Of a stretch of 64,000 bases of DNA, positions 15,173 to 32,080 are shown piece by piece (position 1 is the stretch's first letter; each line of letters opens with the position of its first letter). The position numbers and the translations under genes were made by a program. This stretch comes from an uncultured bacterium. GTDB taxonomy: Bacteria; Patescibacteriota; JABMPQ01; CAVVCK01. The DNA lies in NCBI GenBank assembly GCA_963746775.1, contig CAVVCK010000002.1, positions 75,571-139,570 of the forward strand, in the 5' to 3' direction. The notes below the pieces were generated by a model that did not search any database, was not told the DNA's origin, and was given only the letters and a program-made list of their open reading frames with translations.

Positions 15173-15183
15173 TTTATATAATC

Positions 15184-18722: not shown

Positions 18723-19268
18723 TTATTGAATGTCAGTATCAAAGAAAGGAAAATACCTTGATTTATATCGTAAATTTTTATTTCGTGTTTTTATTACTTT
18801 AGCCGGATTGCCAACAGCTATATTATAGGCAGGAATATCTTTTGTGACAACTGCTCCTGCACCAATCACTGCTCCCTCTCCTATAACCACCCCTGGAAGA
18901 ATAATCACTCTTGTTCCAATCCATGCGTTATCTCTAATAATAACCGGTTTTACTAAACAAGCAAAGTCTGGATTCTGTGGATCATGAGTTAAGGTTTGAA
19001 TTAATGTTTGATGAGAAATATTAACATTATTTCCAATTTTAACACCAGCACGTCCATCTAAATATGTCTGTCTATTAACTACGGTATTATTACCAATCTC
19101 TATCTTAGATCCAGTTACAAAACAATTCATATGTATACTAGAATTTTTACCAATTTTTAAATGACAAAAATGTCTTAGAAACCAATGTCGTAAAGTATAA
19201 GATGGTATTTTAGCAAATAAATGATTTGCCAAGTAAAAGCATAGGGCAAAAATTATTTTAATCAACAT
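18723..19268 (-). CDS. Hexapeptide-repeat O-acetyltransferase (WcaF/maltose acetyltransferase-like)
   Basis: Left-handed beta-helix repeats IGNNVNISHQ...IGTRVIILPGVVIGEGAVIGAGAVV. Confidence 0.8.
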   Translation of the reverse strand: MLIKIIFALCFYLANHLFAKIPSYTLRHWFLRHFCHLKIGKNSSIHMNCFVTGSKIEIGNNTVVNRQTYLDGRAGVKIGNNVNISHQTLIQTLTHDPQNPDFACLVKPVIIRDNAWIGTRVIILPGVVIGEGAVIGAGAVVTKDIPAYNIAVGNPAKVIKTRNKNLRYKSRYFPFFDTDIQ

Positions 19269-20505
19269 TTTGTTTATAACTTTTTGCTAAATTTGAAAAT
19301 ATTTTCTCGTATTCAATTATAGTATTTTTTAAATTGTAATATTTTATTATTTTATCTCTTCCCTTTTTCCCAGCATTTTTCCAGTACTCTTCATTATCTG
19401 TAAATTTTATCATAGCAGCAGCTAAATCATTCGCAGTATTATAATTTTTCTTGTTATAAGCAATATCATCTAATATCTGAGAATTAAAATCTGTAATATT
19501 TCCATATTCGTTTTTTATAATAATCCCAATATCATTATTTTCTATTACTTCTGACGAACCTCCGGTATCAGTTAATATCATAGGTTTCCTGTAAAACATA
19601 GCTTCATTCATTGCAATACTCCAACCCTCTATAAAAGAAGGAAGTAAAAATGCATCAGTAATATTATAAAATGACTCTATATTTGAGAAATATCCTGGCA
19701 TAATTATGTGTTTATTTAAGCCTTCTTTATTTAGATAATTTTGAAATTCTTCTATATGGTTTGGATTTATTATATTTCCTATACAAAGTATTTTAATGTT
19801 TTTGCGTTTTTTTAAAATATTTTTCATTGCATCAGCCATTAAATAATGTCCTTTGTGTAAATTATATGAGGCTACATTTAAAAATATATAATCATTTTTT
19901 GCTAATCCAAAATCATTTCTATTAATTTTATTTATGTTTTTCTCTCTCTGAAGATGTTCATCAATATTTAAACCATTGGAAATTGTGATAATTTTTTTAT
20001 TAGGAATTCCTAAAATTTTATTAGCATATATAGTCGCATTTTTCGATACAGATATATATAAATCAACATATAAATCATTTTCTTTAAATTTTTGTAATGC
20101 AGAATTATCTAAAAATGCATAAACATTATGAATAAATGTAATATTGGGAATTTTATTATTTTTTAATATTTTATACCCAAAATTAGAAAAATGGGAACAG
20201 CTTAAATTTATATTTTCTTTTTTTATAATTTTAGAATATTTTTTAGCTTTATTAAATAATCCAGCTAGATTATATGTTTTTATTCCCTTAGCTAGTGCTA
20301 TTTTACTCATATGTCCTGCTTTATTAATATTCACAATAACTGGATTAAATTTCTCTTTATCTAAAAATAAAGCATGATCCAAAATAACTTTTTGTAATCC
20401 GCCTTTATCAAAAGAATCTACCTCGATTAAAAGATTTATTTTTTTATCATCTTTAACAAATCTTGATTTGTTTTTCTTGAATAAATTTTTTAATAAATTT
20501 TTCAC
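19258..20505 (-). CDS. GT4 glycosyltransferase
   Basis: 415 aa; C-terminal ...LPSFIEGWSIAMNEAMFYRKPMILTDTGG... GT-B motif. Confidence 0.7.
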   Translation of the reverse strand: MKNLLKNLFKKNKSRFVKDDKKINLLIEVDSFDKGGLQKVILDHALFLDKEKFNPVIVNINKAGHMSKIALAKGIKTYNLAGLFNKAKKYSKIIKKENINLSCSHFSNFGYKILKNNKIPNITFIHNVYAFLDNSALQKFKENDLYVDLYISVSKNATIYANKILGIPNKKIITISNGLNIDEHLQREKNINKINRNDFGLAKNDYIFLNVASYNLHKGHYLMADAMKNILKKRKNIKILCIGNIINPNHIEEFQNYLNKEGLNKHIIMPGYFSNIESFYNITDAFLLPSFIEGWSIAMNEAMFYRKPMILTDTGGSSEVIENNDIGIIIKNEYGNITDFNSQILDDIAYNKKNYNTANDLAAAMIKFTDNEEYWKNAGKKGRDKIIKYYNLKNTIIEYEKIFSNLAKSYKQNVD

Positions 20506-21428
20506 TATTTTAGCATAGCTATTAATAATAATTTTGTTTCATCTTGCATAATTAAATCATAAAATTTATTTCTATCTTTAATATTAATATAAAGCATTAT
20601 ACATAAGATAATAATATTTGATAAATTTTTATTTTTTAAAAATAATTTTAGATATTCTATATTTTCAGGTAATAATTTTTTGATTAAATTAATATTATCT
20701 TCGACAACTGAAACGGCTGTTACTGCAGCCACTTCAATTTGCACTTTCGTAACAGTTTCTTTAATTGTATTTGATGAATGAATTCTATATTGAATATGAA
20801 CATGATTATCATAATAATACTCTGCTTGTCGCAAAGATGTAATTATAAAATCTAAATCATGACAATAACGCAATGGTTGAAATCCACCCACAGATTCCCA
20901 TAATTTCTTTGTAAAAAATAAGTTCGAAGTTGTTGTTATAAAATTTTCATTTAAAATTGATAATTGTAGGTAATTTGTTTTTTTAAAATAATCTAGCGCT
21001 CTTTTACGCCACTCCTTCTCCACTCCCGAGGTTATTATAGAACCTTTATCATTAATAAATTCTATTTCGCCAAAAATTAATTCAATCTTTGGATTATTTT
21101 GAATAATATCAACACATCTTCTAATTTTATCCTCTTTATAAATATCATCAGAATTTAGAACACTAATATATTCACCTGTTGCTAAGCTAATACATCTATT
21201 AATAGTATTATGAGCACCGGCATTTTCTTGTGAATAAAATTTAATATTTGAATATTTTTCTGCAAAATCCTTACAAATATCAGCAGAATTATCTTCTGAT
21301 CCATCATCAATTATTATTAATTCTATATTCTTATATGTTTGATTCAATACACTTTTAATTGTTCTCTTTATATATTTTTCATGGTTATAAGAAGGAATAA
21401 CCATGCTTACCTTCTTCATGTTTTTCAT
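20505..21428 (-). CDS. GT2 glycosyltransferase
   Basis: VSMVIPSYNHEKYIKRTIKSVLNQTY...IIIDDGSEDNS. Confidence 0.75.
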   Translation of the reverse strand: MKNMKKVSMVIPSYNHEKYIKRTIKSVLNQTYKNIELIIIDDGSEDNSADICKDFAEKYSNIKFYSQENAGAHNTINRCISLATGEYISVLNSDDIYKEDKIRRCVDIIQNNPKIELIFGEIEFINDKGSIITSGVEKEWRKRALDYFKKTNYLQLSILNENFITTTSNLFFTKKLWESVGGFQPLRYCHDLDFIITSLRQAEYYYDNHVHIQYRIHSSNTIKETVTKVQIEVAAVTAVSVVEDNINLIKKLLPENIEYLKLFLKNKNLSNIIILCIMLYINIKDRNKFYDLIMQDETKLLLIAMLK

Positions 21429-24373
21429 TATTTTAATAATTCTTTTAATACTTTTTTGGCATTTTCAGTTGAAAATTCTTTTTGTACGTGCTTTACAGAT
21501 TCTTTAGATATCTTCTCCCATAATAACTTATCATGATATAGGTTTACTACTTTTTTAGCAAAAACTTTTTTATCATCTGCCAAACAAGCGTTACGACCAT
21601 CAATTAATCCTATCCCCTCGGCTCCAATACTTGTAGTTACTACTGGAACCCCGAAACTCATTGCTTTAGCAATTTTACCTTTAAATCCTGCTCCAAATCT
21701 AAGAGGTGCAATAAAAACTTTTGATTCGGAAAACAACTCCGGAAGTTTGTTTTCTTCAACAAAACCCGTAATTTTAAATTGTCTTTCATTTAATTTTTCT
21801 ATTTCTTTTGGTACATTACTTCCCACAATAACAACTTTAAAATTTTTAATTTTATTTTTTAAAACCGGGAAAATTTCATCGTGAAACCAAATAACAGCAT
21901 CAATATTTGGTGCATGTGAAAACCCTCCTAAAAATATAATATTTTTTCTCTGTTGATATTTATCAAGAATATTATTTTCCATAACTGGCTGTATCCATGG
22001 CAAAGTAGCAGTTTTAATATTAGAATCTATTTTATCAATTATTTTTATTTCTTCTTTACTATAAAATAAGGAAATATCCGCTTTTCTCATTATTGAAAAT
22101 TCTTTTTTTTGCATAGTTTGATCTTTTTTTTCAAGATTTTTATTCATTATCTCTGACATTCTTTGTTCCCTTAAAAAATGTAGATCAACTCCGATATAAA
22201 GTATTTTTGTATTAGAATATTTTTTGATTATATTAAAAAATTCATTAGCTATAAGTGGTCTAGAAAGAAATGTATAATTAATATATTCTCCATTTATTTT
22301 TATAAAATTTAGAAAGGCTGAAGGACCATAAATAACTTTAATTCCTAAATTTGTTAATATTGTATTATATGGTTCTAGATGATTTTCATTATAAGAACAA
22401 AAAATAACATTATAACCAAGCTTTACTAAAATTAATAAATATTTATAGGCAATATATGACCCTGCATCTTTATCATAAGTAGGAAGAGTAAGGTCTATAA
22501 AAAGTATATTTTTTTTATCTTTTGAAATTATATTATTATAACTATGTTTATTTTTCTTATATTTAAAAAATATTAGAGGTAATTTAATAAATTTAAATAG
22601 AAATTTTGGAATAAATTTTTTAATCTGTTTCTTATAAATTTTATAAAAATAATTTGGTATTTTCCAACGTAATGTATTTTTTAAAGTGTATATTTCTTGA
22701 TTAAGATTTTTTATATACTCATCTCTATTCTTTATTTCATTCTCTCTATTCTTTATTTCGTTATCTTTTTGTTCAATTTTAATATTTTTACATTTTATTA
22801 AATCCTCATTATTATTTATCTTATTATTTTTAATACTTTCATAAATATAGTAATAATGCATTTGCAGTTCCTCTTGCATCTTAATTAATTTCTTGCAGAC
22901 ATCATTCTTGCTTTTAAATAATACTCCTAATCCAAAAGAATGGTGAAACTCTATAGTCTGATATTCTTGTTTTAATTCCTCCCAAAGTTTACATACTCCG
23001 AAACCTGACTCTCCAACCTTAATATCATGAAAAAGAATAATTCCGCTATCCTTTATTTTAATAAGCCAATTTTCAAAATCATGCTTTACCGCTTCATAGG
23101 TATGCAAACCATCAATATGAAGAATATCAATTGATTTATCTTTAAATTCAGAAATGGCATTATCAAAAGTTTTTTTAATCAGTTTAATTTCCACACCTGA
23201 ATATAATTTATTGACTACTTTTTGTACAAATTTATAAATATCATCTCCATAAAAACCCGCATGCTTATCGCCTTCCCATGTATCAATAGCATTAATTTCT
23301 GTCTTAATACCCTCATCTTTTACGGCTTGACAAAAAGAAAAAAACGATGTTCCTTTATGAGTTCCTAATTCAACAATTTTTTTTGGTTTAATATTTCTAA
23401 TTAAATCATACGAAAATAATTTATGACCAGCCCATGGCCAACTAATGTCTTGAAATTCTTTTTCGTATTCAAATACAGGAACAAAATATTTCCAATCTTT
23501 ATTTTTTGATTTATTAATAAAATTTTGAAAATCAAAAGATTCTATAATACCAATTCGCTGCATTTCCATTGCCTTTTCTTTAGATATTAATAATTTACTA
23601 TACTCTTCATCTAACTTTCCTAATTTATAAGCATCAAACCAACGACGAATGTGCCAATTTATATCTTTGCTAAAAGAATTATTTCTTTCCATAGCTCTAC
23701 CGTAATTAATAACTTTTCTATAAAATTCTTTTTTTTCTCTTAATGGAAAATGAAAAATATTAATATTTTCAGATTTTCTAGTATTGATTACTTTTTTTTT
23801 ATTAATAATAGAATGATTACCCATCGAGACCTTAAGTAGTCCTTCTCCTGTTTTAAAAATAACCTTAGGGGGATACCTAAAAAAATATAAATTTTCCTTT
23901 TTTGAATCTTCTTGGAAATTTTCAGTTTCTATTGGATGAACTACCGCATATTTTGCATTTTCTGGAAACGATTCCTTGCCACCTTTATTCTCAAGTAATA
24001 TATTAATTAAATTAACCTTCAAAACATCAGCAGATGAATTCCATATTTCAGCTTTCAAGTCCCCACTTTTAGGAAACCAAAATTCATCCGCATCGCAATG
24101 AAAAACGATATCAGCTTTATAATTATCAATCGCAATTCTAGCCATTTTATTATTCCACTTTGATTGAGATATGTCTCTACCTGGCTCATCTATCAAATAA
24201 AGCTTTCCTTGATTTTGGTATTTAACAAAGACATTTCTTGTATTATCGCTAGAAGCATTATCAGTAGCTATAATAAAATCAACTCCATGATTAAGATGAA
24301 ATTCTATATTTTTTTCTATAATATCACCCTCATCCCTAGCAAGGATGGTCATTATTAGCTTCGGATCTTTCAT
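21428..24373 (-). CDS. 981-aa multidomain enzyme: N-terminal GT2-like domain, CmcI/TylF-like class I methyltransferase, coiled coil, C-terminal GT4
   Basis: N-terminus TILARDEGDIIEKNIEFHLNHGVDFIIATDNASSDNT; middle IVELGTHKGTSFFSFCQA...DTWEGD...DGLHTYEAV; coiled coil with KNRENEIKNRDE repeat; C-terminus ...FKGKIAKAMSFGVPVVTTSIGAEG. Confidence 0.7.
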   Translation of the reverse strand: MKDPKLIMTILARDEGDIIEKNIEFHLNHGVDFIIATDNASSDNTRNVFVKYQNQGKLYLIDEPGRDISQSKWNNKMARIAIDNYKADIVFHCDADEFWFPKSGDLKAEIWNSSADVLKVNLINILLENKGGKESFPENAKYAVVHPIETENFQEDSKKENLYFFRYPPKVIFKTGEGLLKVSMGNHSIINKKKVINTRKSENINIFHFPLREKKEFYRKVINYGRAMERNNSFSKDINWHIRRWFDAYKLGKLDEEYSKLLISKEKAMEMQRIGIIESFDFQNFINKSKNKDWKYFVPVFEYEKEFQDISWPWAGHKLFSYDLIRNIKPKKIVELGTHKGTSFFSFCQAVKDEGIKTEINAIDTWEGDKHAGFYGDDIYKFVQKVVNKLYSGVEIKLIKKTFDNAISEFKDKSIDILHIDGLHTYEAVKHDFENWLIKIKDSGIILFHDIKVGESGFGVCKLWEELKQEYQTIEFHHSFGLGVLFKSKNDVCKKLIKMQEELQMHYYYIYESIKNNKINNNEDLIKCKNIKIEQKDNEIKNRENEIKNRDEYIKNLNQEIYTLKNTLRWKIPNYFYKIYKKQIKKFIPKFLFKFIKLPLIFFKYKKNKHSYNNIISKDKKNILFIDLTLPTYDKDAGSYIAYKYLLILVKLGYNVIFCSYNENHLEPYNTILTNLGIKVIYGPSAFLNFIKINGEYINYTFLSRPLIANEFFNIIKKYSNTKILYIGVDLHFLREQRMSEIMNKNLEKKDQTMQKKEFSIMRKADISLFYSKEEIKIIDKIDSNIKTATLPWIQPVMENNILDKYQQRKNIIFLGGFSHAPNIDAVIWFHDEIFPVLKNKIKNFKVVIVGSNVPKEIEKLNERQFKITGFVEENKLPELFSESKVFIAPLRFGAGFKGKIAKAMSFGVPVVTTSIGAEGIGLIDGRNACLADDKKVFAKKVVNLYHDKLLWEKISKESVKHVQKEFSTENAKKVLKELLK

Positions 24374-24406
24374 AATATCTAAATAATTATTTATTAGTTA
24401 TTCTTG

Positions 24407-26230
24407 CTAAAAAACTTTCCTAAAATATTTTTTAACAAATTTTTTAGGATTATGTATCGCCCAATTTAATTTTCCCATATAGGTATTACCCAGCTTTTCT
24501 AATCTATTTAACCTATCACTTAATTGCTGTATTTGATTATTCTTCTGTCGAATCAAGCTAACATAGTTATCTATCTTCTTAGTTTTTGAATTCAACAATT
24601 CTCTTTCTAACTTGATTTTCTCTTTTTTCTTTTTAATATTTCTATTCATCAGTTCGGTAATTTGATAAAAATATTCAGCATCATCATTTGAATAATGTTT
24701 CTTAATAAAATTACCGATTACATTTTTGTCTCTACTAGACAAACTATATTGCCATGGTAAGGCAAGTGCATAAAAAACATTATGAATATATTTCTTAAGC
24801 TCTAGAGTTATTCTAAAAGCAACTATATTGGGCAACACAAAATCCTTAAGATATTCTTCTGGAAATATTTTTTTAGAAGCCAAAAGACTCATTAAAACAC
24901 CGGTAGCATAAGAATCACCAAGGTATTGTAAATTACTACTATCAGCATTCTTTGAAACACGTATGGTTCCATTTTGAACAGGTAAGTTCTGTAAATTTAC
25001 ATCATGCAAAACGCAAATTGCATTCTCTTTCAAATATGGTAATAACATTAGAAAATCGAGTAATTCGCCAGGAAGAATATGTAAGGTATCCAAAATACAA
25101 AAATCAATATTATCGCCTATTTCATCTAGAAAACAGGCAGCAACTCCACCTGTAAAAATATTTAACTTATCACTTAATTCGGGATAAAGTTCATTGACAA
25201 CCCAACCTGATTTTTTTGAATCATCTCTATAATATTTTTTATTATAATCGATTCCTAAAACTTTTACGTTATCTTTATTTTTTGTTTCGTTTAATATAAT
25301 TGCCAAACAACTACCCGCCGCTATTCCAACTTCCAAAATTTTTTTAGGCTGTTCTTTTATTATTAAATTTTTAATAAATTCAACCTCTGATTTTTGCATT
25401 TCCGAATACTGCAAAGCAAAATTTTCACATATTAAGTCATAAAATGGATTAATTTTTGCATATTTCCAAAAATATTCAGACAAAAACATTTCCTTATTGT
25501 TCCATGGTTTTGTTGGTCCACAATAGTGAATAGTATGTATATTTTCAGTTAATTTAGACAATTTCTTTTCGTTCTCATAATAGGATAACTGAATATTGTA
25601 TTTTTCTGGTAATTTTTTAATAGAACCACTCAAAACAACATTTAGAACATCTTGATCTACAAAATCTATTTTTTCCCTATTATTTTTTGCCCATTCAAAT
25701 AATTTCTGTTCGATTTTGTCACTTCTCCATTTATTAAGATTTAAAAGCATTAACCCTGCATTAAAATAGTAGCTATTTAGTGGTAACTCAAGTCTTAATA
25801 ATTGTGAACCCAAGAATTCTATTGTACTAGCATTCAAAATCATTCCCGCATAATAGTTTCTTATATCTGTATTAAAAAGATCCAGAACGTCTTTCGATAT
25901 TATCATATCACTATCAAGGTATATGACTTTATCAATATTAGGAAATAAAGAAGCCAATTTAAATCTAAAATAGTTTTCTATTGAAAAATAATGAGTAATT
26001 GGGCAATGCTTAAAATCATTTTTATCAACGATAATAAAATCAATGGAACATTTTTTTATTTTTGTTAATTCCTGAAATTTATTTCTAGTTTCTTTTGATA
26101 AATTTGTTGCTAGAATATAAAAATTTAATTCTGTTTCCTTTTTTGAATTAGTTAATATAGATGCAATAGTCGTTGCACAGTATGGGGCATAATTTTCGTC
26201 TGTAGATAATATTATAGGGATTGTGGTCAT
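24407..26230 (-). CDS. 607-aa GT8 glycosyltransferase fused to a class I methyltransferase-like domain, coiled coil and shared C-terminal tail motif
   Basis: GT8 motifs IPIILSTDENYAPYCATTIASIL and YLDSDMII; ILEVGIAAGSCLAIIL...DTLHILPGE; C-terminus ...LEKLGNTYMGKLNWAIHNPKKFVKKYFRKVF. Confidence 0.7.
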   Translation of the reverse strand: MTTIPIILSTDENYAPYCATTIASILTNSKKETELNFYILATNLSKETRNKFQELTKIKKCSIDFIIVDKNDFKHCPITHYFSIENYFRFKLASLFPNIDKVIYLDSDMIISKDVLDLFNTDIRNYYAGMILNASTIEFLGSQLLRLELPLNSYYFNAGLMLLNLNKWRSDKIEQKLFEWAKNNREKIDFVDQDVLNVVLSGSIKKLPEKYNIQLSYYENEKKLSKLTENIHTIHYCGPTKPWNNKEMFLSEYFWKYAKINPFYDLICENFALQYSEMQKSEVEFIKNLIIKEQPKKILEVGIAAGSCLAIILNETKNKDNVKVLGIDYNKKYYRDDSKKSGWVVNELYPELSDKLNIFTGGVAACFLDEIGDNIDFCILDTLHILPGELLDFLMLLPYLKENAICVLHDVNLQNLPVQNGTIRVSKNADSSNLQYLGDSYATGVLMSLLASKKIFPEEYLKDFVLPNIVAFRITLELKKYIHNVFYALALPWQYSLSSRDKNVIGNFIKKHYSNDDAEYFYQITELMNRNIKKKKEKIKLERELLNSKTKKIDNYVSLIRQKNNQIQQLSDRLNRLEKLGNTYMGKLNWAIHNPKKFVKKYFRKVF

Positions 26231-26234
26231 GTTA

Positions 26235-27056
26235 TTAAAATTTTACTACAAGATAAGAACCGTTTCTACAAATTACTTTTTTGTGATCCAAAATATTCTG
26301 ATAAAAAAGATTATCAATAGTGCTACAATGTTCATTAGTATTCCTAATAATTGGATAAGAGTCTATCCAGTTTGTAATAATTAAGTAACCCTTGTTTTTA
26401 TGCAATACTTTACTTATTCTTTTAAAAACTATATTGGACTCCTCTTTATTTATATGCTCTATAGATTCAGTAAAAATAACAGTATCTATTTTCTTCCAAT
26501 TAATTTTCTCAAGTGCCTCAATTAGATTACAATTTATTAATTTTACATTATTCTTTATTTCCAATCTTTTGCTTGTTTTTTGTAATAATTCTTGTGCACA
26601 TTTACAAGACTCCACCATTTGCACATCAATTCCTAAGTAGCTTAAAGCAAGACTTACTTCTCCTCTTCCACCACCAATGTCTAAAACATGTTTTGGTTTT
26701 CTAGAATGATTATCAAAAATTTTAGACACTTGTTCTTTGGCTATCATTTGTGGAAACGGAATCTTGCCTACACCTTTGAAATTTAAAATTCTTTTAACTT
26801 TTTCAAAAGATTCTATTCCTAATGCGCAGGCTATTGCTGGACACTGATCTCCAAATCTAATCATATTATAATCCCAAGCATGTTGTTCTGGTATATTTTT
26901 TTTAGTAAAATATTTTTCATTGCAGATGCAATTTAAATTATTTGATTTATAAAAATCTTTTTTTACGATTTTTATTATCAGTAGATTTAATGATTTTAAA
27001 AAAAATATTTCTTGAGAAATTTGCGCGGATTGGTTAATGCCCAGCCATATCTCCAT
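26235..27056 (-). CDS. Class I SAM-dependent methyltransferase
   Basis: VLDIGGGRGEVSLALSYLGIDVQMVE motif I/II. Confidence 0.6.
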   Translation of the reverse strand: MEIWLGINQSAQISQEIFFLKSLNLLIIKIVKKDFYKSNNLNCICNEKYFTKKNIPEQHAWDYNMIRFGDQCPAIACALGIESFEKVKRILNFKGVGKIPFPQMIAKEQVSKIFDNHSRKPKHVLDIGGGRGEVSLALSYLGIDVQMVESCKCAQELLQKTSKRLEIKNNVKLINCNLIEALEKINWKKIDTVIFTESIEHINKEESNIVFKRISKVLHKNKGYLIITNWIDSYPIIRNTNEHCSTIDNLFYQNILDHKKVICRNGSYLVVKF

Positions 27057-27636
27057 TGCTTGGAATTCTTCAATTTTTGTATATCTTCCCCTGCTTTTAT
27101 GAAAATTTTTTTTGTCGCCAATGATGTTTTAGCCTTAATGCTTTTTTGTTTTTTTAGAAATTCTGTTAATTCATTTCGCTTAATATTTAATTTACAATTT
27201 TTCTCTAACCACAAAACCAGTGAATATTCTTTAAAGATAATTTGGTAATCTCTTTTATTGGGTTTTGTTAATTTTTTTACCCAAAAATATTTTGATTTAT
27301 CAATAACATTTTCCATATATGTTTTATTAGATTCATTTTTTACATACTCCCAACAACCACCCCAACCATCTTTTTTTTGATTTATAATAATTTCTGGAAG
27401 TTTCAATTTTTAACATATTTTCTAAAATATTTTGACCCATCTATTCCCCAAATATTTTTATTGTAAAGGGTATATAAATTTTCTATTAAATATGCATTTC
27501 CGCAACCAATATCACCAAATATTTTTCCTTTAATATTATTACTTATCCATTTGGAAATCTCAAAATAGTCATCTTTCCAATTAAAGTGCATTTTATAGAA
27601 TTGATCATTGTAGTATTTAAGATTTTTATCTCCCAT
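26996..27636 (-). CDS. Two adjacent ORFs (77 aa with GDIGCGNAYL methyltransferase motif I; 136 aa ending in the shared WALTNPRKFLKKYFF tail motif); possibly one split gene
   Basis: ORFs 27403..27636 and 26996..27406 overlap by 4 nt (TTGA); the C-terminal motif is homologous to the tails of three other proteins in the locus. Confidence 0.35.
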
Positions 27637-27639
27637 AAT

Positions 27640-28066
27640 TATTATTTTTTAGGTTATTTATTTTCCAAATATCTTTTAATTATTTCTGCGCTGTTATCCT
27701 TAAAATCCTTAATTTTACCTTTTTCTAGCCACATAACTTTATTGCAATAATCTTTAATATTTTGCATTGAATGGGTTACATACAAAACTGTTTTTTGTTT
27801 TCTTTCATTTTTTTATAAAATCCCTCGCATTTTTTCTGAAAAGCAAAATCACCCACGGAAGAAAACTCATCTATTAAATAAAGTTTCCCCTTATTTTTAT
27901 ACTCAGTTAAAATATCTCTTGTATTATCGCTAGAAGCATTATCAGTAGCTATAATAAAATCAACTCCATGACTTAAATGAAATTCAATGTTTCTTCTTAT
28001 AATATCACCCTCGTCTCTAGCGAGAAGAGTCATTACTAATTTAGGATTTTTTTTAATAACACCCAT
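27640..28066 (-). pseudogene. Mosaic gene remnant: duplicate of the N-terminus of the 981-aa protein's GT2-like domain (about 150 bp near-identical to 24238-24375), fused to a degenerate copy of the ABC ATPase 3' end
   Basis: 96-aa ORF MGVIKKNPKLVMTLLARDEGDIIRRNIEFHLSHGVDFIIATDNASSDNT... then ...GDFAFQKKCEGFYKKMKENKK, similar to ABC ATPase ...GDFVFKKKCEKVFNNMKKERK. 27660-27860 aligns with 30600-30800. Confidence 0.5.
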
Positions 28067-28080
28067 AATTTTTAGACAAT

Positions 28081-30591
28081 TTAATTTATTTTTTCTTTTT
28101 GTACTGCAAAAGATAAGTATTTTACTAAAAACTTCTTTGGATTATGAATTGCCCAATTAATTTTTTCAAAATATTTCTTAATAAACTTCTTCGGATTGTG
28201 CACCGCCCAATTTAATTTCCCCAAAAAAGTATTATTTAATTTATTAAAAGCTTCTAGGGTTTTATTCTGATTTGCTATTAAGTCATCTTTACTCTTTATT
28301 TTATTCTCTTTCCATTCTATTTGTTTATCTTTATCTATAATATTATCTATAATATTTAATTGAAGATTACGTATTTGAATAATCAATTGTTTTTTTGAGG
28401 CATGTCTTTCATCACTAACAAAATTAATGCTCGATTTATTATTTCTGTATGCATTATTTGTTAAAGCTTTAATCTTAAAATTATTTTTCCATAATACATA
28501 AACTAAACTTAATTGGTCTCTATATGAATAATTTTTAATCCAATACCACCAATCACTCATAATTTTTATTATTTTTTTGTTGTTATGTTTTCTGTATACA
28601 ATATTAGTTTCAAAAAAAGTTCCAAAGCTTCCAGAAAAACCAGAATTTTTAATAATTGATTTTTGTTTTTCAATAGTTTTAATATTATCTTTTTTTAAAA
28701 ATTCACAAGCATCAAATTCATCATATATATTATGTCTTTCTGGATGAGGACCAATAGACATTAATTGTCTAGCAATATCGGCTCTCTTAATATCTTGAAA
28801 AATTCTATTATTTAATATATCAATATTAGCATCAACATATAAACTTTCATTATATTCTGGGAAAAGAATATGGGGATGTAATTTGTGCCAGCGGCTATTA
28901 CGCACATCATTTAATTTGTCAAATTTTAATGATCTAAATTTCCAAATAAATTTGTTTTTATCTTTGGGAATATTGTCTGTAAAACAAACATAATTCCAGT
29001 CATCATTAATATATTTGTGATTTATAATTTCATCATAATTACCCGTAACACAAGTATACACTACTTTAGTTTTTTTCTTTTTAATTTTCTGTATCCTGTG
29101 TTTAATTTTATTAGTGGATACAATTGTTAGTTCGTTTTTGCTATCAACTTTAAGACTGGGATAAACTAGTTTAAGTTTTTTGCTAATTTTACTATTATCT
29201 TCTATAAAATATATAAAATTTTTAGACAAGTGGGGTAATATACTTTTCATGGTATTTAAAATACTTTCATCAGAATGAAAACCATCATCAATAACAATAT
29301 CTATTTTATCTCCTTTAAGAATTTTTTCTAAATAATTTTTATTATCAACAGATTGATCAAATTCATAAAGTTCTGGTTGGTTTTTCAAAAAAGCACTAAG
29401 TTTTTTTAAATTTTTTATGTTGTTTTTGATATGATTCAAATCTTTATCAAGACAAATAATTCTTCCCTTTTCAAAAAGATCACACCAAACAGCCAGACCA
29501 CTTCCTTTCAAAATCCCTGTTTCCACAAAAACAGGTAGCTTTTTTGCCTTGATGATTGGCGAAAGATACTCCGCATACTTTTCTGCGTATCCATGATAAA
29601 GCATTCTATCTCCTCCTGTATTTATCTCTTCTCTTGTTCTTGTGTCAAAAGGAGAAACTTTGTTTCTTGGAACATTAGTAGCAATTCCTCCATACCTTAT
29701 TTCCTTTTCGATAAGCCATTTTTGTAAGTTTAACTGGTCTTTAGTCAACTTTTTTGGTAACTTTATCATTTCTCCAAATTCATAATCCCATTCAACTGGT
29801 TTAAAAGGATCTAATCCGGCACCTGGATAAAATGTCATTTCTCCAAAATAAGTTTTTCCTTTAGTTGAGTATAAATCTACTCTAACAAAAGGAAATTTTG
29901 ATGATAATTTTTTTGCAACAACTAACATTTCGTTTAAATTCGGTGGTTTTGGTATGTTAAAAGAATCATCCTTAGGATAAGCAAATTTTTCTATGTTTAA
30001 GTAATTCCAATTCAAGTCATAAAAATTTCTCCTATGGTTTGTAAATCTACCCACATCAACGCCAATGCATATAGGTTTTCCAGAAAAACAAAATATTTTA
30101 TAATCAAGAAGATTATCACCTAAATATTCTTCACAAATTATTTTTGGTTTAATGTTTTTGTAGCCCCATTCATATGAAAAATAATAATGATTAGAACTTG
30201 ATTTAATCCATTCTTTTAATTTATTTTTAACATCTTTTTCATTTAGCTTCAGTTTGTTTTTGCAAATAATATTTTGTCCACTACCATGATTTATCTTTAA
30301 AATAAATTTATTTGGTAGTTTATTAAAATTTATTTTATTCTCATTATTGTAAACACCTAATAGATTTGTTAAATATTTCTTTCCGATTATTTTTTTTACG
30401 TAATCTCTCACCTTATATTTATCAGCACATAATGTTAATAATGGATTTTTGTAATATAATTTTAGCCACTGCAATTTTTCATTAAAAGTTGTTGGGTTAT
30501 CTATATCTGGATTGTAACCAAAACTATTGATAAATTGTTTTTGAATATGTTCTTTAGTAAGAAATATATTATTGCTTATATTATTTTGCAT
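28081..30591 (-). CDS. 836-aa multidomain protein: TupA-like ATP-grasp domain, CmcI-like methyltransferase domain, DUF616-like putative glycosyltransferase domain, coiled coil, doubled C-terminal tail motif
   Basis: NPDIDNPTTFNEKLQWLKLYYKNPLLTLCADKYKVRDYV (TupA-like); VETGILKGSGLAVWCDLF...IDDGFHSD; KVVYTCVTGNYDEI...VCFTDN (DUF616-like); C-terminus GKLNWAVHNPKKFIKKYFEKINWAIHNPKKFLVKYL. Confidence 0.65.
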   Translation of the reverse strand: MQNNISNNIFLTKEHIQKQFINSFGYNPDIDNPTTFNEKLQWLKLYYKNPLLTLCADKYKVRDYVKKIIGKKYLTNLLGVYNNENKINFNKLPNKFILKINHGSGQNIICKNKLKLNEKDVKNKLKEWIKSSSNHYYFSYEWGYKNIKPKIICEEYLGDNLLDYKIFCFSGKPICIGVDVGRFTNHRRNFYDLNWNYLNIEKFAYPKDDSFNIPKPPNLNEMLVVAKKLSSKFPFVRVDLYSTKGKTYFGEMTFYPGAGLDPFKPVEWDYEFGEMIKLPKKLTKDQLNLQKWLIEKEIRYGGIATNVPRNKVSPFDTRTREEINTGGDRMLYHGYAEKYAEYLSPIIKAKKLPVFVETGILKGSGLAVWCDLFEKGRIICLDKDLNHIKNNIKNLKKLSAFLKNQPELYEFDQSVDNKNYLEKILKGDKIDIVIDDGFHSDESILNTMKSILPHLSKNFIYFIEDNSKISKKLKLVYPSLKVDSKNELTIVSTNKIKHRIQKIKKKKTKVVYTCVTGNYDEIINHKYINDDWNYVCFTDNIPKDKNKFIWKFRSLKFDKLNDVRNSRWHKLHPHILFPEYNESLYVDANIDILNNRIFQDIKRADIARQLMSIGPHPERHNIYDEFDACEFLKKDNIKTIEKQKSIIKNSGFSGSFGTFFETNIVYRKHNNKKIIKIMSDWWYWIKNYSYRDQLSLVYVLWKNNFKIKALTNNAYRNNKSSINFVSDERHASKKQLIIQIRNLQLNIIDNIIDKDKQIEWKENKIKSKDDLIANQNKTLEAFNKLNNTFLGKLNWAVHNPKKFIKKYFEKINWAIHNPKKFLVKYLSFAVQKEKIN

Positions 30592-31315
30592 TATTATTAT
30601 TCAAATATTCTTTTATAATTTCACTATTATTATCCCCAAAATCTTTAATAACCCCTTTCTCTAGCCATATAACCTTATTACAATATTTTTTTACCTGCTC
30701 TGAAGAATGAGAAACAAATATAATAGTTTTTCTTTCTTTTTTCATATTGTTAAATACCTTTTCACATTTCTTTTTAAAAACAAAATCTCCTACCGCTAAC
30801 ACTTCATCTAATAAATAGATGTCAGCTTCAGCATGAATAGCAATAGAAAAAGCTAATCTTACTTTCATACCCGAAGAAAAATTTTTTAATGGAACGTCTA
30901 GAAATTCTCTGATTTCAGCAAAATCAACTATTTCATTAAACCTATTATTTAATTCTTTTTTTGTAATATTTAATATTGTACCATTCAAAAATATGTTGTC
31001 TCTGGCTGACAAATTCTGATTGAAACCAACTCCTAATTCTAAAAAAGGTACTAGCGTTCCGTTTTTGATTATTTCTCCTTTGTCTTGTTCGTAAATTCCA
31101 GCAATAATTTTAAGCAAGGTAGACTTGCCGGAACCATTTTTACCAATCAATCCTAGCCAATCTCCCCTCTTTAAATCAAAGCTGATATTCTCCAGCGCTT
31201 TAAATTTCTTGTACTTAATTTTATTAACATTAAAAAAATAAGCTCTTAAACTATTTTGAGTTGGTATTCTAAATGATTTATAAACATTTTTAACCTCTAA
31301 AATATTGTTTTCCAT
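30581..31315 (-). CDS. ABC transporter ATP-binding protein, polysaccharide/teichoic-acid export type (Wzt/TagH-like)
   Basis: Walker A GLIGKNGSGKST, signature FSSGMKVRL, Walker B IYLLDEVLAVGD. Confidence 0.85.
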   Translation of the reverse strand: MENNILEVKNVYKSFRIPTQNSLRAYFFNVNKIKYKKFKALENISFDLKRGDWLGLIGKNGSGKSTLLKIIAGIYEQDKGEIIKNGTLVPFLELGVGFNQNLSARDNIFLNGTILNITKKELNNRFNEIVDFAEIREFLDVPLKNFSSGMKVRLAFSIAIHAEADIYLLDEVLAVGDFVFKKKCEKVFNNMKKERKTIIFVSHSSEQVKKYCNKVIWLEKGVIKDFGDNNSEIIKEYLNNNNAK

Positions 31316-32080
31316 TTAAAAAAATTCTGCTACTTTTTTAATTTTTTTCTTAAAGAAAAAATAACCAATTATGAAAGTAGTAATACTTATTAGTAATAAA
31401 ACTATCAAAAATTTTAAATCCGGAAGTTGATTTTCAATAATTATTTGCCTAACTTGATAAATAATGATAGTAGTTGGATTTAGAAACATTATGTATCTAT
31501 ATTTTTCTGGAATAATGGTTATGGGGAAAAAAACAGCGCTAGCATAAAAATTAAGCTGTAATAGCACTCCCCATATTTTTTGTAAATCTCGAAAACGTAC
31601 ATATAAAATACTTGCGATAAACGTAAAGCCAATTATAAAGATAGTTAAAATTATAATATAAATAGGCAGAAGAAGCCATAAATAAGTTATAGCTGTAGGC
31701 TTAAATATCCAAAAAGCGATAAATACAACAAAACTAAAAAGCATAGCTATAAAAGAATTTATGACTGAGGCTACTACTGCTATCTGCCTAGGAAAATTAA
31801 CTTTTAAAATAATATTTGCTTTATTTAAAATAGAACTAAGCCCAGCTGATGTGCCTTCATTAAAATATTCCACTATTAACAAGCCTAAAATTAATCGTAA
31901 AACAAAATATTCATCCCCTCTGGCAAATATAAAGCCGAAAATTAAGTATAAAACTAAAAAATGAAGCAAAGGCTGAAATAAAACCCAAATAAAACCTAAA
32001 ACGGAATCATTATACCTCATCTTAAAATCAGTCTTGATCATTTGCCACAATAAATCTTTATTGGCTCTAGTTATTTTCAT
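31316..32080 (-). CDS. ABC-2 type transporter permease (Wzm/TagG-like)
   Basis: 254 aa, six TM helices; directly upstream of the ATPase gene and overlapping it by 1 nt. Confidence 0.8.
   Translation of the reverse strand: MKITRANKDLLWQMIKTDFKMRYNDSVLGFIWVLFQPLLHFLVLYLIFGFIFARGDEYFVLRLILGLLIVEYFNEGTSAGLSSILNKANIILKVNFPRQIAVVASVINSFIAMLFSFVVFIAFWIFKPTAITYLWLLLPIYIIILTIFIIGFTFIASILYVRFRDLQKIWGVLLQLNFYASAVFFPITIIPEKYRYIMFLNPTTIIIYQVRQIIIENQLPDLKFLIVLLLISITTFIIGYFFFKKKIKKVAEFF

What the first reader, a model, noticed from the sequence alone, without database searches (positions are those of the whole stretch)
21428..30591. Cluster of giant GT-methyltransferase fusion enzymes with unusual domain combinations
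Three neighbouring genes encode proteins of 981, 607 and 836 aa that each fuse a CmcI/TylF-type class I methyltransferase-like domain to glycosyltransferase modules. The 981-aa protein has a GT2-like N-terminus, the MT domain and a GT4 C-terminus. The 607-aa protein has a GT8 N-terminus and the MT domain. The 836-aa protein has a TupA-like ATP-grasp domain, the MT domain and a DUF616-like putative GT domain. All three carry coiled coils. A TupA-like ATP-grasp domain, known from teichuronopeptide or amino-acid-decorated polymers, fused to MT and GT modules would build, methylate and possibly aminoacylate a glycan in one polypeptide. I do not recognise this fusion architecture. The products are likely methylated sugars on a surface glycan or glycoprotein.
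Basis: partly seen in the sequence, partly recalled or inferred. Interest (0 to 1): 0.6.

Follow-up and report, generated by a model that had tools for sequence, protein, structure and literature searches.

The report
Modular sugar-building and methylating enzymes
Three large fusion enzymes in a surface-sugar gene cluster of a small, AT-rich bacterium are real and do combine sugar-adding, sugar-methylating and amide-forming parts, but they are new permutations of a known, widespread modular design, not a new kind of system.

Summary
Homologues from independent assemblies show the same fusions, so they are not frameshift artefacts.

The middle segments are methyltransferases. Two are Methyltransf_24. 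The 836-aa one is a MycE/TylE-type metal-dependent sugar O-methyltransferase with the Asp/His/Asp active-site residues conserved.

The genes lie in one tightly packed operon just downstream of Wzm/Wzt ABC-transporter genes. This is an ABC-transporter-dependent glycan assembly locus.

The architecture is not unprecedented:
- The GT92-like + MT24 + heptad-helix unit, with or without further GT modules, gave more than 1,500 hits, some source-named "O-antigen biosynthesis protein".
- It matches the WbdD, WbbB, K. pneumoniae O7 ORF6 and WsaE design.
- TupA-type ATP-grasp domains fused to GTs are common and are characterised in C. jejuni Cj1438, a glucuronate amidoligase.

What is unusual:
- The three-way ATP-grasp–MT–GT116-like fusion has only one other full-length homologue cluster.
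- Four proteins of the locus share one tail: a helix plus a basic "NWAxHNPKKFxKKYF" motif. That tail variant appears lineage-restricted.
- Wzt lacks the carbohydrate-binding module that goes with cap-gated export.

Verdict: new variant of a known kind, of moderate interest.

The parts
31316..32080 (-). Wzm-like ABC-2 permease (254 aa)
   Evidence: Pfam ABC2_membrane, 43.3 bits. It overlaps the upstream GT2 gene and abuts Wzt.
30581..31315 (-). Wzt-like ABC ATPase (244 aa), with no C-terminal carbohydrate-binding module
   Evidence: Pfam ABC_tran at residues 41-172, and no other domain in a 244-aa protein. It overlaps the 836-aa gene by 11 nt.
28081..30591 (-). 836-aa protein. Modules: TupA-like ATP-grasp (about 29752-30564); MycE/TylE-type O-methyltransferase (about 29107-29715); GT116/TOD1_MUCI70-like GT (about 28414-29076); heptad region (about 28207-28386); two copies of the NWAxHNPKKF motif (28084-28206).
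   Evidence: Pfam. Family alignment with invariant D435, D436, G437, H439 and E464. Profile against the PDB hits MycE at E=1.9e-6. AF2 model, mean pLDDT 81. Foldseek best match MycE, with ATP-grasp ligases LysX and RizA also matched. Motif scan. Coordinates.
27057..28080 (-). Recombination scar made of gene fragments. A copy of the N-terminus of the 981-aa gene is joined to a Wzt C-terminal fragment (27654-28066). It is followed by a frameshifted small methyltransferase (27403-27636, then 26996-27406) that ends in the shared tail motif.
   Evidence: ORF translations. A 193-nt direct repeat, 24185-24377 versus 27866-28058, at 81% identity. Motif at 27002-27043.
26235..27056 (-). Stand-alone class I SAM methyltransferase (273-aa ORF)
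   Evidence: Pfam Methyltransf_23, _25, _31 and _11.
24407..26230 (-). 607-aa protein. Modules: GT8 (about 25451-26230; DSD at residues 106-108, HxxGxxKPW at 235-243); Methyltransf_24 (about 24731-25408); heptad helix (about 24467-24634); C-terminal NWAIHNPKKFVKKYF motif (24410-24466).
   Evidence: Pfam. PDB sequence hits to LgtC (1e-29) and WbbM. Heptad test, 1 of 5000 shuffles reached the observed score. Full-length homologues P0242-P0245. Motif positions.
21428..24373 (-). 981-aa protein. Modules: GT-A (GT2_4/GT92-like, about 23504-24373); Methyltransf_24 (about 22904-23476); 66-residue helix (about 22679-22876); W-x4-P basic/aromatic junction (about 22574-22678); GT-B GT4 (about 21431-22510).
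   Evidence: Pfam. AF2 model, mean pLDDT 86.3, with helix 500-565, disordered 587-614 and GT-B at 622-981. Foldseek matches retaining GT4 enzymes MshA and BshA. Family invariants in the methyltransferase domain. Junction motif conserved across the family.
18723..21428 (-). Downstream genes, each overlapping the next by 1-11 nt: GT2 (20505-21428), GT4 (19258-20505), hexapeptide acyltransferase (18723-19268).
   Evidence: Pfam. Overlaps of 1-11 nt.
32067..33098 (-). GT2 gene upstream of Wzm (343 aa)
   Evidence: Pfam Glycos_transf_2, 93.1 bits.
7240..9553 (+). GDP-mannose 4,6-dehydratase (7240-8265) and a Gmd-paralogous SDR (8633-9553). These are the probable source of a GDP-6-deoxyhexose donor.
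   Evidence: NCBIfam gmd, 442.6 bits against a cut-off of 415. For the second gene the best hit is gmd at 145 bits, below the cut-off.

Best explanation
These are multi-module enzymes of an ABC-transporter-dependent (Wzm/Wzt) surface-glycan pathway. The host is a small-genome, roughly 26% GC bacterium, probably from the Patescibacteria/CPR.

Shown:
- Each protein joins one or two glycosyltransferase modules to a SAM- and metal-dependent sugar O-methyltransferase. The GT modules are GT92-like plus GT4, GT8, or GT116-like.
- The 836-aa protein also carries a TupA-type ATP-grasp domain.
- In every case the catalytic 'head' that contains the methyltransferase is followed by a heptad-repeat helix of about 45-66 residues. 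After the helix comes a basic/aromatic W-x4-P motif (NWAxHNPKKFxKKYF). In the 981-aa protein a GT4 module follows the motif.

Inferred:
- The helix oligomerises the proteins.
- The basic/aromatic motif holds them at the cytoplasmic face of the membrane beside Wzm/Wzt, as in WbdD, WbbB and O7-ORF6.
- The heads then act on the growing, non-reducing end of a polyprenol-linked glycan. The GT module adds a sugar, probably a 6-deoxyhexose made through Gmd, and the fused methyltransferase O-methylates it.
- In the 836-aa protein the ATP-grasp amidates a sugar carboxylate, by analogy with Cj1438.
- Wzt has no carbohydrate-binding module. Methylation is therefore more likely an end-decoration or capping step that is not read by the transporter.
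For: - Domain identities: Pfam, AF2 models, Foldseek, PDB sequence and profile hits.
- Active-site conservation: D436, H439 and D465 of the 836-aa protein align with MycE Asp275, His278 and Asp304. These are invariant or nearly invariant in its family. PMC9275233 describes these residues as the metal-binding and active-site residues of rhamnose/6-deoxyallose 2'-O-methyltransferases.
- Operon context: GT2, Wzm, Wzt and the 836-aa gene follow one another with overlapping or abutting ends.
- Synteny: the related locus L002 has Wzm, Wzt, a stand-alone TupA ATP-grasp, a sulfotransferase-GT2 fusion and a GT92-MT24-GT2-GT2 protein. All three of the latter carry the same tail.
- The same module set as separate genes: L005, from an unrelated 5.2-Mb genome, has Bac_transf, Wzm, a short Wzt, a TupA ATP-grasp and a GT92-MT24 protein.
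- Family-wide layout: heptad region followed by S-x-S-W-(R/K)-x-T-x-P-L-R after the methyltransferase domain.
- Literature: in the characterised systems the terminating enzyme lies at the distal end of a coiled coil and the polymerising GTs at the other end (PMC11231755). WbdD's C-terminal region recruits the polymerase WbdA to the membrane (PMC3482155); PMC11231755 describes a membrane-associated amphipathic helix there. WsaE is a methyltransferase plus two rhamnosyltransferases encoded next to wzm/wzt (PMC2943079). The Cj1438 C-terminal TupA-like domain amidates GlcA (PMC11800379).
- Sugar donor: Gmd plus a Gmd-paralogous SDR in the window.
Against: - Wzt is 244 aa with no CBM. PMC11231755 states that in all the terminated O-polysaccharide examples a CBM is attached to Wzt.
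- The helices span 45-66 residues. The C-terminal coiled-coil-containing domain of WbdD spans about 250 residues (PMC3482155).
- Three or four proteins of one locus carry a helix-plus-motif tail. The characterised systems have one such protein each.
- Coiled-coil support for the 836-aa protein is marginal.
- No UDP-glucose dehydrogenase gene lies in the window or in the related loci fetched. The uronic-acid/amidation step therefore has no local support.
- No initiating phosphoglycosyl transferase was identified in the window.
- Membrane binding, oligomerisation and all enzyme activities are inferred, not shown.
Confidence: 0.55

Rival explanations
1. In-chain methylation. The GT + MT pairs build a polymethylated polysaccharide in which most or all added residues are O-methylated, as in mycobacterial 3-O-methylmannose polysaccharide, which is made by a GT4 mannosyltransferase working with methyltransferases. 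On this view the helices only oligomerise the enzymes and have no role in termination.
For: - Three or four methyltransferase-bearing proteins in one locus fit repeated decoration better than a single cap.
- Wzt lacks a CBM, so no cap is read.
- The 981-aa protein's best sequence hit in the PDB is the M. hassiacum methyltransferase MeT1 (6g7d, E=0.05). Its GT4 module matches the M. hassiacum methylmannose-polysaccharide mannosyltransferase 7qsg among the top Foldseek hits.
Against: - The matches to the MMP enzymes are weak and generic (E=0.05; one of many GT4 hits).
- The conserved order, methyltransferase head then helix then membrane-proximal GT or anchor, is the layout described for terminators (PMC11231755).
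- MMPs are cytoplasmic and are not linked to ABC exporters (own knowledge).
Confidence: 0.27
2. Strict WbdD/WbbB-type system. The methyltransferase heads are chain terminators, the helix is a molecular ruler that sets glycan length, and export depends on the cap.
For: - The architecture [terminator-type head]-[coiled coil]-[GT or membrane anchor] lies next to wzm/wzt.
- The 981-aa protein has the same order as K. pneumoniae O7 ORF6: methyltransferase, coiled coil, then GT modules (PMC11231755).
Against: - Wzt has no CBM. The CBM accompanies every characterised terminated system (PMC11231755).
- The helices are short, at 45-66 residues.
- There are several tailed proteins per locus.
Confidence: 0.12
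3. The fusions are assembly or frameshift artefacts, or decaying pseudogenes, so the 'giant' proteins do not exist as such.
For: The locus does contain real debris. There is a chimeric fragment and a frameshifted small methyltransferase at 27057-28080.
Against: - The three ORFs are uninterrupted.
- An identical 836-aa product appears in an independent assembly.
- Homologues with 89%, 64% and 61% identity and the same GT8-MT24 fusion exist.
- The homologue P0002 covers 84% of the 836-aa protein, from the ATP-grasp through the GT116-like module.
- Hundreds of GT92-MT24 fusions exist.
- Catalytic motifs are intact.
- The AF2 models are confident.
Confidence: 0.03

Closest known systems
K. pneumoniae O7 ORF6 and O12 WbbB, coiled-coil polymerase-terminator proteins of ABC-transporter-dependent O-antigen assembly (PMC11231755)
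   Same: Like the 981-aa protein, they have an N-terminal modifying head, a central coiled coil and C-terminal GT module(s). In O7 ORF6 the head is a methyltransferase. Their genes lie next to wzm/wzt.
   Different: - The head here is a GT92-like GT plus a Methyltransf_24 domain, not a methyltransferase-kinase or a Kdo transferase.
- The helix is much shorter, at about 66 residues.
- Wzt has no CBM.
- Several proteins of the locus carry the helix + motif.
- The host is not a proteobacterium.
E. coli O9a/O8 WbdD (PMC3482155)
   Same: [quoted passage not shown] It is a trimer held together by the helix.
   Different: - WbdD has no GT module and uses a different methyltransferase family.
- Its C-terminal domain is about 250 residues.
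- Its cap is read by the Wzt CBM.
- The tail motif here (NWAxHNPKKF) was not compared with the WbdD C-terminus, because no sequence was available to the tools.
Geobacillus stearothermophilus WsaE, a trifunctional 2-O-methyltransferase plus two rhamnosyltransferases for the S-layer glycan (PMC2943079)
   Same: A methyltransferase is fused to GT modules in one polypeptide. The gene follows wzm and wzt directly, with overlapping stop and start codons. The host has a Gram-positive-type envelope. The substrate is a 6-deoxyhexose polymer.
   Different: The domain order and the GT families differ. No sequence comparison was made here.
C. jejuni Cj1438 and HS19.11, a GT2 fused to a TupA-like ATP-grasp amidoligase (PMC11800379)
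   Same: A TupA-like ATP-grasp is fused to a polymerising GT in a transporter-dependent polysaccharide locus. The ATP-grasp amidates the C6 carboxylate of GlcA.
   Different: - Here the ATP-grasp is N-terminal.
- It is followed by a MycE-type methyltransferase and a GT116-like rather than a GT2 module.
- No Ugd gene is nearby, so the acceptor is unknown.
MycE, TylE and SpnK, SAM/Mg-dependent deoxysugar O-methyltransferases (PDB 3ssm and 8ia9; PMC9275233)
   Same: The middle domain of the 836-aa protein matches them by profile (E=1.9e-6) and by fold. The Asp, His and Asp active-site positions are conserved.
   Different: Those enzymes act on glycosylated macrolides as free tetramers with their own N-terminal auxiliary domain. 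Here the domain is embedded in a glycan-assembly protein and has a different, family-specific N-terminal extension (…VSPxDPRT…GGDRM…HGY…).

Membership tests
Coiled-coil terminator/polymerase proteins of ABC-transporter-dependent glycan assembly (WbdD, WbbB, O7-ORF6 class) | Encoded in a locus with wzm/wzt ABC-transporter genes | tested here: met
   Wzm lies at 31316-32080 and Wzt at 30581-31315, directly upstream and overlapping the 836-aa gene. The syntenic locus L002 has the same arrangement.
Coiled-coil terminator/polymerase proteins of ABC-transporter-dependent glycan assembly (WbdD, WbbB, O7-ORF6 class) | An extended coiled coil that separates the terminating module from the membrane-proximal region or the polymerising GTs | tested here: inconclusive
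   - 981 aa: AF2 helix 500-565, lying between the methyltransferase and the GT4. 21 of 5000 shuffles reached the observed heptad score.
- 607 aa: 1 of 5000 shuffles.
- 836 aa: 381 of 5000 shuffles, with low AF2 confidence.
- Lengths are 45-66 residues, far shorter than the roughly 250-residue C-terminal domain of WbdD (PMC3482155).
- The oligomeric state was not modelled.
Coiled-coil terminator/polymerase proteins of ABC-transporter-dependent glycan assembly (WbdD, WbbB, O7-ORF6 class) | A terminating-type enzyme (methyltransferase, kinase or Kdo transferase) on the distal side of the coiled coil | tested here: met
   Methyltransferase domains lie N-terminal to the helix in all three proteins. 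Terminating activity itself was not tested.
Coiled-coil terminator/polymerase proteins of ABC-transporter-dependent glycan assembly (WbdD, WbbB, O7-ORF6 class) | Wzt carries a C-terminal carbohydrate-binding module that recognises the cap | tested here: not met
   Wzt is 244 aa with only the ABC_tran domain. The related loci L002 and L005 also have short Wzt proteins of 246 and 238 aa.
Coiled-coil terminator/polymerase proteins of ABC-transporter-dependent glycan assembly (WbdD, WbbB, O7-ORF6 class) | The modification is confined to the non-reducing terminus and controls chain length | not testable with these tools
   This needs the glycan structure and mutants.
Methyltransf_24 (PF13578; class I SAM methyltransferases of the CmcI/TylF-like clan) | Score above the Pfam gathering threshold, with SAM-binding and acidic/His motifs intact | tested here: met
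   - 981 aa: 90.3 bits. 607 aa: 31.8 bits. The cut-off is 26.3.
- The motifs ELGTHKGTS, HIDGLH and FHD are invariant in the family alignment.
- The 836-aa protein scores only 22.6 bits, so it is not a member by this test. It is assigned to the MycE type instead.
MycE/TylE-type SAM/metal-dependent sugar O-methyltransferases | Significant sequence-profile and fold similarity, plus conserved equivalents of Asp275, His278 and Asp304 | tested here: met
   - Profile hits: 3ssm at E=1.9e-6 and 8ia9 at E=7e-4. The DDGxH and IED segments are aligned.
- Foldseek top hits are MycE chains.
- D436 and H439 are invariant and D465 is nearly invariant.
- The residue roles are taken from PMC9275233.
MycE/TylE-type SAM/metal-dependent sugar O-methyltransferases | N-terminal auxiliary domain and tetrameric assembly of MycE | not tested
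   The aligned region covers only the methyltransferase core (MycE chain residues 200-326). The segment upstream is a different, family-specific extension.
TupA-like ATP-grasp (PF14305) amidoligases | Full-length match to the family model, with conserved ATP-grasp residues | tested here: met
   - 202.4 bits, covering profile positions 1-241 of 241.
- K39, K44, K58, K99, E141, E154, R237, D239 and E251 are invariant among 28 homologues.
- The model also matches the ATP-grasp ligases LysX and RizA.
TupA-like ATP-grasp (PF14305) amidoligases | ATP-dependent amide formation on a sugar carboxylate, as in Cj1438C | not testable with these tools
   This rests on analogy only (PMC11800379). No Ugd gene lies in the window.
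GT116 / TOD1_MUCI70 (PF04765) | Score above the Pfam gathering threshold over most of the domain, and a folded alpha/beta domain | tested here: met
   - 31.1 bits against a cut-off of 21.4, covering profile positions 72-299 of 314.
- AF2 gives mean pLDDT mostly between 77 and 97 per 10-residue block over residues 509-720, with one block at 68.
- A stand-alone homologue in Lactovum miscens is 41% identical.
- The donor sugar is unknown. PF04765 equals GT116, whose characterised plant member is a galacturonosyltransferase (PMC11765706).
GT8 retaining glycosyltransferases | Strong family match, a DxD motif and the HxxGxxKPW motif | tested here: met
   201.5 bits. LgtC hit at E=1.2e-29. DSD at residues 106-108 and HYCGPTKPW at 235-243.
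GT4 (GT-B) glycosyltransferases | Family match and GT-B fold | tested here: met
   Glyco_trans_1_4 at 91.3 bits. Two Rossmann-like halves at 622-981. Foldseek matches to MshA, BshA and SPS at E down to 7e-14.

The most novel reading that the evidence does not exclude
The shared tail is a lineage-specific docking module. It consists of a heptad helix plus one to three copies of the NWAxHNPKKFxKKYF motif. On this reading the tail lets several different finishing enzymes co-assemble into one hetero-oligomeric, membrane-tethered complex beside a CBM-less Wzm/Wzt exporter. The enzymes concerned are the ATP-grasp amidoligase, the sulfotransferase-GT2 (in L002), the GT-methyltransferase heads and a small methyltransferase.

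The roughly 200-nt tail-coding repeat is 80-89% identical between genes. It would double as a recombination handle that swaps catalytic heads and so diversifies the surface glycan between closely related CPR strains.
Probability: 0.2. Interest if true: 0.55.

Novelty: new variant of a known kind. Interest (0 to 1): 0.35.

Why it matters
Surface glycans of CPR/Patescibacteria are essentially uncharacterised. Yet these episymbionts depend on cell-surface contact with their hosts.

This locus shows that they use the same modular logic as O-antigen and S-layer glycan pathways: GT and modifying modules strung on a coiled coil beside an ABC exporter. It differs in its module permutations, in a common tail on several enzymes, and in lacking the transporter's cap-reading module.

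If the shared tail turns out to be a docking or recombination module, it would explain how tiny genomes diversify their surface sugars quickly. It would also give a handle for engineering multi-enzyme glycan assembly.

The predicted products are O-methylated 6-deoxyhexoses, possibly with amidated uronic acids. These are concrete targets for glycan analysis.

Tried and rejected
(1) The genome-contig scan with the 836-aa protein returned only a stand-alone TOD1-like gene in Lactovum miscens. It neither named the organism nor found close relatives. The CPR assignment therefore rests on source names of homologues (Shapirobacteria, Parcubacteria, Moranbacteria), the 547-kb contig and the roughly 26% GC.

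(2) The listing of cluster members gave no names or accessions.

(4) AF2 gave a low-confidence tail for the 836-aa protein because the alignment had no depth there.

(5) My first crude coiled-coil scan was uninformative. I replaced it with a heptad shuffle test.

(6) A profile of the tail searched against 1.84 billion representatives found only the four window proteins and two L002 proteins over its full length. The remaining hits were generic coiled coils. This tail variant is therefore not a widespread family.

(7) Recent duplication of the methyltransferase domains is rejected. They are only 25-30% identical to each other.

(8) The frameshift-artefact explanation is rejected.

(9) A tblastn search for Ugd in the window and the related loci found nothing. 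The uronic-acid step stays hypothetical.

Full report
**Observation.** The three ORFs exist exactly as described, on the minus strand: 21428-24373 (981 aa), 24407-26230 (607 aa) and 28081-30591 (836 aa).

- 981 aa: Glyco_tranf_2_4 (13-102), Methyltransf_24 (334-451, 90.3 bits) and Glyco_trans_1_4/GT4 (803-958).
- 607 aa: Glyco_transf_8 (6-245, 201.5 bits) and Methyltransf_24 (299-411, 31.8 bits), with a weak RMNT_CmcI hit.
- 836 aa: ATPgrasp_TupA (38-277, 202.4 bits), TOD1_MUCI70/DUF616 (509-709, 31.1 bits) and a sub-threshold Methyltransf_24 hit (22.6 bits).

The genes are not strictly adjacent. A 273-aa stand-alone methyltransferase gene and about 1 kb of gene debris lie between the 607- and 836-aa genes.

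**Are the middle segments methyltransferases?** Yes.

For the 981- and 607-aa proteins the Pfam scores exceed the curated cut-off. The SAM-binding and acidic/His motifs (ELGTHKGTS, HIDGLH, FHD in the 981-aa protein) are invariant across 29 homologues.

For the 836-aa protein I aligned it with its closest homologues. The segment 293-490 is the best-conserved part of that family. Its string of invariant residues includes GGDRM, E357-x-G359, D382-x-D384, D435-D436-G437-x-H439 and E464.

A profile of that alignment hits the solved sugar O-methyltransferases MycE (3ssm, E=1.9e-6) and 8ia9 (E=7e-4). The DDGxH and IED segments are aligned. Allowing for the 20-residue tag offset of the PDB chain, D436, H439 and D465 correspond to MycE Asp275, His278 and Asp304. 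PMC9275233 describes these as the Mg-binding and active-site residues of this family of 6-deoxysugar 2'-O-methyltransferases.

The AlphaFold model (mean pLDDT 81) has MycE as its best Foldseek match (E=1.6e-6). Other metal-dependent O-methyltransferases and, for the N-terminal part, ATP-grasp ligases follow.

The three methyltransferase domains are only 25-30% identical to one another. They are old paralogues of two subfamilies, not recent copies.

**Are the fusions real?** Yes.
- The exact 836-aa product is also encoded on a contig of an independent Logan assembly.
- A 607-aa JGI protein is 89% identical over 98% of the GT8-MT24 protein. Homologues at 64%, 61% and 56% identity keep the fusion, while split forms (methyltransferase only, GT8 only) also exist.
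- P0002 (885 aa) is 49% identical over 84% of the 836-aa protein and aligns through the ATP-grasp, methyltransferase and TOD1-like modules.
- The 981-aa query returns more than 1,500 proteins. Most combine a GT92/GT2_4-like domain and Methyltransf_24 with various GT2 and GT4 modules.

**Context.** The genes form one co-directional array in which neighbours overlap, abut or lie a few bases apart. The order is GT2 (32067-33098), Wzm (31316-32080), Wzt (30581-31315), the 836-aa gene, debris, the 273-aa methyltransferase, the 607-aa gene, the 981-aa gene, GT2, GT4 and an acyltransferase.

Further downstream on the same strand lie a sulfotransferase, a GtrA/GT2/GT-C three-component set and another methyltransferase. 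On the plus strand are Gmd (442.6 bits, above the cut-off) and a Gmd-paralogous SDR. Housekeeping genes (YidC, QueA, RuvB, ClpB, ArgS) show that this is a bacterial chromosome.

The window is about 26% GC. The proteins come from a 547-kb contig. Named homologues are from Shapirobacteria, Parcubacteria and Moranbacteria. A CPR/Patescibacteria origin is therefore likely, though it is inferred.

This is an ABC-transporter-dependent glycan assembly locus.

**Anatomy common to the three proteins.** The AF2 model of the 981-aa protein (mean pLDDT 86.3) has these parts:
- a GT-A domain (1-290);
- the methyltransferase (300-490);
- one uninterrupted helix (500-565);
- a second helix (568-587) that carries RWKIPNYFYKIYKKQIKKF;
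- a disordered basic/aromatic linker (587-614);
- a GT-B domain (622-981) that matches retaining GT4 enzymes.

The helix has Ile or Leu every seventh residue. In the heptad test 21 of 5000 shuffles reached the observed score. For the 607-aa protein the figure is 1 of 5000, and for the 836-aa protein 381 of 5000.

The 607- and 836-aa proteins end, after this helix, in a nearly identical motif, (G)KLNWA(I/V)HNPKKF(V/I)KKYF. It is present twice in the 836-aa protein. A fourth copy ends the frameshifted small methyltransferase at 26996-27406. The tails of the 607- and 836-aa proteins are 41% identical over 83 residues, although their catalytic parts are unrelated.

Across the wide family of the 981-aa protein, the heptad region is followed by S-x-S-W-(R/K)-x-T-x-P-(L/I)-R or a related sequence. 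The window's motif keeps the same W-x4-P spacing, so it is a local variant of a widespread junction element.

A profile of the local tail finds only the four window proteins and two proteins of the related locus L002 over its full length, among 1.84 billion representatives.

**Related loci.** L002 comes from a 1.05-Mb contig and is syntenic. Its order is MopE/LamG protein, GT4, GT2, Wzm, GT4, Wzt, a stand-alone TupA ATP-grasp (410 aa), a sulfotransferase-GT2 fusion (695 aa) and a GT92-MT24-GT2-GT2 protein (1272 aa, 75% identical to the N-terminal 58% of the 981-aa protein). All three of these enzymes carry the same tail: C-terminal in the first two, internal in the third. The tail-coding DNA is 86-89% identical among them and 80-82% identical to the window's 836-aa tail.

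L005, from an unrelated 5.2-Mb genome, has the same parts as separate genes: Bac_transf, Wzm, a short Wzt (238 aa), GT2, TupA ATP-grasp, a radical-SAM protein, GT92-MT24 (589 aa) and GT2.

The module set is therefore conserved and the fusion pattern is fluid. The debris at 27057-28080 is direct evidence of recombination inside the locus. It includes a copy of the N-terminus of the 981-aa gene spliced to a Wzt C-terminal fragment, and a 193-nt repeat at 81% identity.

[quoted passage not shown] The terminating enzyme sits at the distal end and the polymerising GT modules are variably fused. K. pneumoniae O7 ORF6 is a methyltransferase(-kinase), a coiled coil and two GT2 modules. O12 WbbB is a Kdo transferase, a coiled coil and two GTs. 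[quoted passage not shown] WsaE of G. stearothermophilus is a 2-O-methyltransferase fused to two rhamnosyltransferases. Its gene follows wzm and wzt with overlapping codons, and it makes an S-layer glycan (PMC2943079).

The 981-aa protein has the WbbB/ORF6 layout. The 607- and 836-aa proteins have the WbdD layout with an extra GT in the head.

TupA-like ATP-grasp domains fused to polymerising GTs are characterised in C. jejuni Cj1438 and HS19.11, where the ATP-grasp amidates the C6 carboxylate of GlcA (PMC11800379). In one search the ATP-grasp is fused to:
- PF04765 in 19 of the 120 listed clusters;
- GT8 in 8 clusters;
- GT4 in 6 clusters;
- FkbM or class I methyltransferases, and even ABC ATPase domains.

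PF04765 corresponds to CAZy GT116, whose one characterised plant member is a galacturonosyltransferase (PMC11765706). The stand-alone bacterial homologue in Lactovum miscens sits in an EPS cluster that ends with a UDP-glucose dehydrogenase gene. This suggests a uronic-acid transferase coupled to an amidoligase, but it does not prove it. No Ugd gene lies in the window or the related loci fetched.

**Where it departs from the prototypes.**
- Wzt is 244 aa with no carbohydrate-binding module. PMC11231755 says that in all the terminated O-polysaccharide examples a CBM is attached to Wzt. L002 and L005 also have short Wzt proteins.
- The helices span 45-66 residues. The C-terminal domain of WbdD spans about 250.
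- Three or four tailed enzymes occur per locus instead of one.

I therefore do not file the system as a cap-gated, ruler-controlled WbdD-type system. I do think it works by the same spatial logic: heads held on a helical stalk at the membrane.

**Mechanism (shown versus inferred).** Shown: the domain identities, intact catalytic motifs, operon linkage to Wzm/Wzt, the shared helix-plus-motif tail, and the conserved module set in relatives.

Inferred:
- The helix oligomerises the proteins.
- The basic/aromatic motif binds the membrane surface. It has a net charge of +5 to +7 per full copy, +3 for the second copy in the 836-aa protein.
- The heads act on the non-reducing end of a polyprenol-linked glycan, adding and O-methylating sugars. 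The sugars are probably GDP-derived 6-deoxyhexoses made through Gmd.
- The ATP-grasp forms an amide on a sugar acid.
- Methylation is an end-decoration or cap that the CBM-less transporter does not read.

The main rival is in-chain methylation, giving a polymethylated polymer. Several methyltransferase-bearing enzymes per locus and the lack of a CBM favour it. The conserved head-helix-anchor order argues against it.

**Verdict.** The architecture class is known and widespread. The specific ATP-grasp–MycE-type methyltransferase–GT116-like fusion is rare, with one other full-length cluster among the hits. The shared, lineage-restricted tail on several enzymes beside a CBM-less exporter is a real variation on the theme. 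This is a new variant of a known kind, of moderate interest (0.35).

Noticed in passing
window 27057-28080 (-): A mosaic of gene fragments. ORF 27776-28066 begins as a copy of the first ~64 residues of the 981-aa protein (193 nt, 81% identical to 24185-24377). It then switches in frame to a Wzt C-terminal fragment, which continues, frameshifted, in ORF 27654-27785. A small class I methyltransferase follows, split by a frameshift (27403-27636, then 26996-27406), and it ends in the shared tail motif. This looks like a recombination or deletion scar in a shuffling locus.
   Followed up: partly
window 34953-36167 and 36677-37897 (-): Two tandem paralogous genes at 39-46% GC in a roughly 26% GC genome, with 94% nucleotide identity over 1063 nt. 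They encode lipoprotein-like products with an LVTGC lipobox, long D-G-D repeats, MopE metal-binding motifs and a LamG/concanavalin-like domain. An orthologue flanks the syntenic glycan locus L002 (276-1496). They may be a surface lectin or a glycosylation target.
   Followed up: partly
window 11286-17354 (-): A GtrA-like flippase (11286-11720), a GT2 (14240-15172) and a PMT_2-type GT-C (15184-16641) form a three-component extracytoplasmic glycosylation set. A sulfotransferase (16710-17354) and a methyltransferase (11741-12232) lie alongside. The glycan is probably further decorated outside the membrane and sulfated.
   Followed up: no
window 41935-52050 (+): A second, Wzx/Wzy-type glycan locus. 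It holds a Wzx-like flippase, a GT4, two Wzy/O-antigen-ligase-like proteins and an Agl23-like GT-C. A REP-associated tyrosine transposase gene (43470-44054) sits inside it.
   Followed up: no
window 7240-9553 (+) and 5120-6052 (-): Gmd (442.6 bits, above the cut-off) plus a Gmd-paralogous 306-aa SDR (Rmd-like?) suggest a GDP-6-deoxyhexose donor. A third SDR (5120-6052) has sub-threshold similarity to dTDP-glucose 4,6-dehydratase (its best hit), LegB, UDP-xylose synthase, ArnA and TviC.
   Followed up: no
window 9866-11299 (-): A 477-aa FAD oxidoreductase matches the uncharacterised PRK07208 family very strongly (670 bits) and UDP-galactopyranose mutase weakly. It lies at the edge of the glycan cluster and may be a sugar-nucleotide mutase or oxidase.
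   Followed up: no
Alignment A3 (homologues of the 981-aa protein); window 22574-22678: Across Proteobacteria, Myxococcota and CPR members of the GT92-MT24 family, the heptad region is followed by a conserved S-x-S-W-(R/K)-x-T-x-P-(L/I)-R motif. W570 is at least 90% conserved. I could not check whether WbdD, WbbB or O7-ORF6 share it.
   Followed up: partly
L002 6650-13819; window 24410-24560 and 28084-28300: The roughly 200-nt tail-coding segment is repeated in three different enzyme genes of L002 at 86-89% nucleotide identity. It is 80-82% identical to the window's 836-aa tail. This conservation is much higher than that of the catalytic parts and could promote head swapping by homologous recombination.
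   Followed up: partly
window 33224-33568 (-): A DUF559 (endonuclease-like) gene sits between the GT4 at 33700-34842 and the GT2/Wzm/Wzt block. It is a small inserted element inside the glycan cluster.
   Followed up: no
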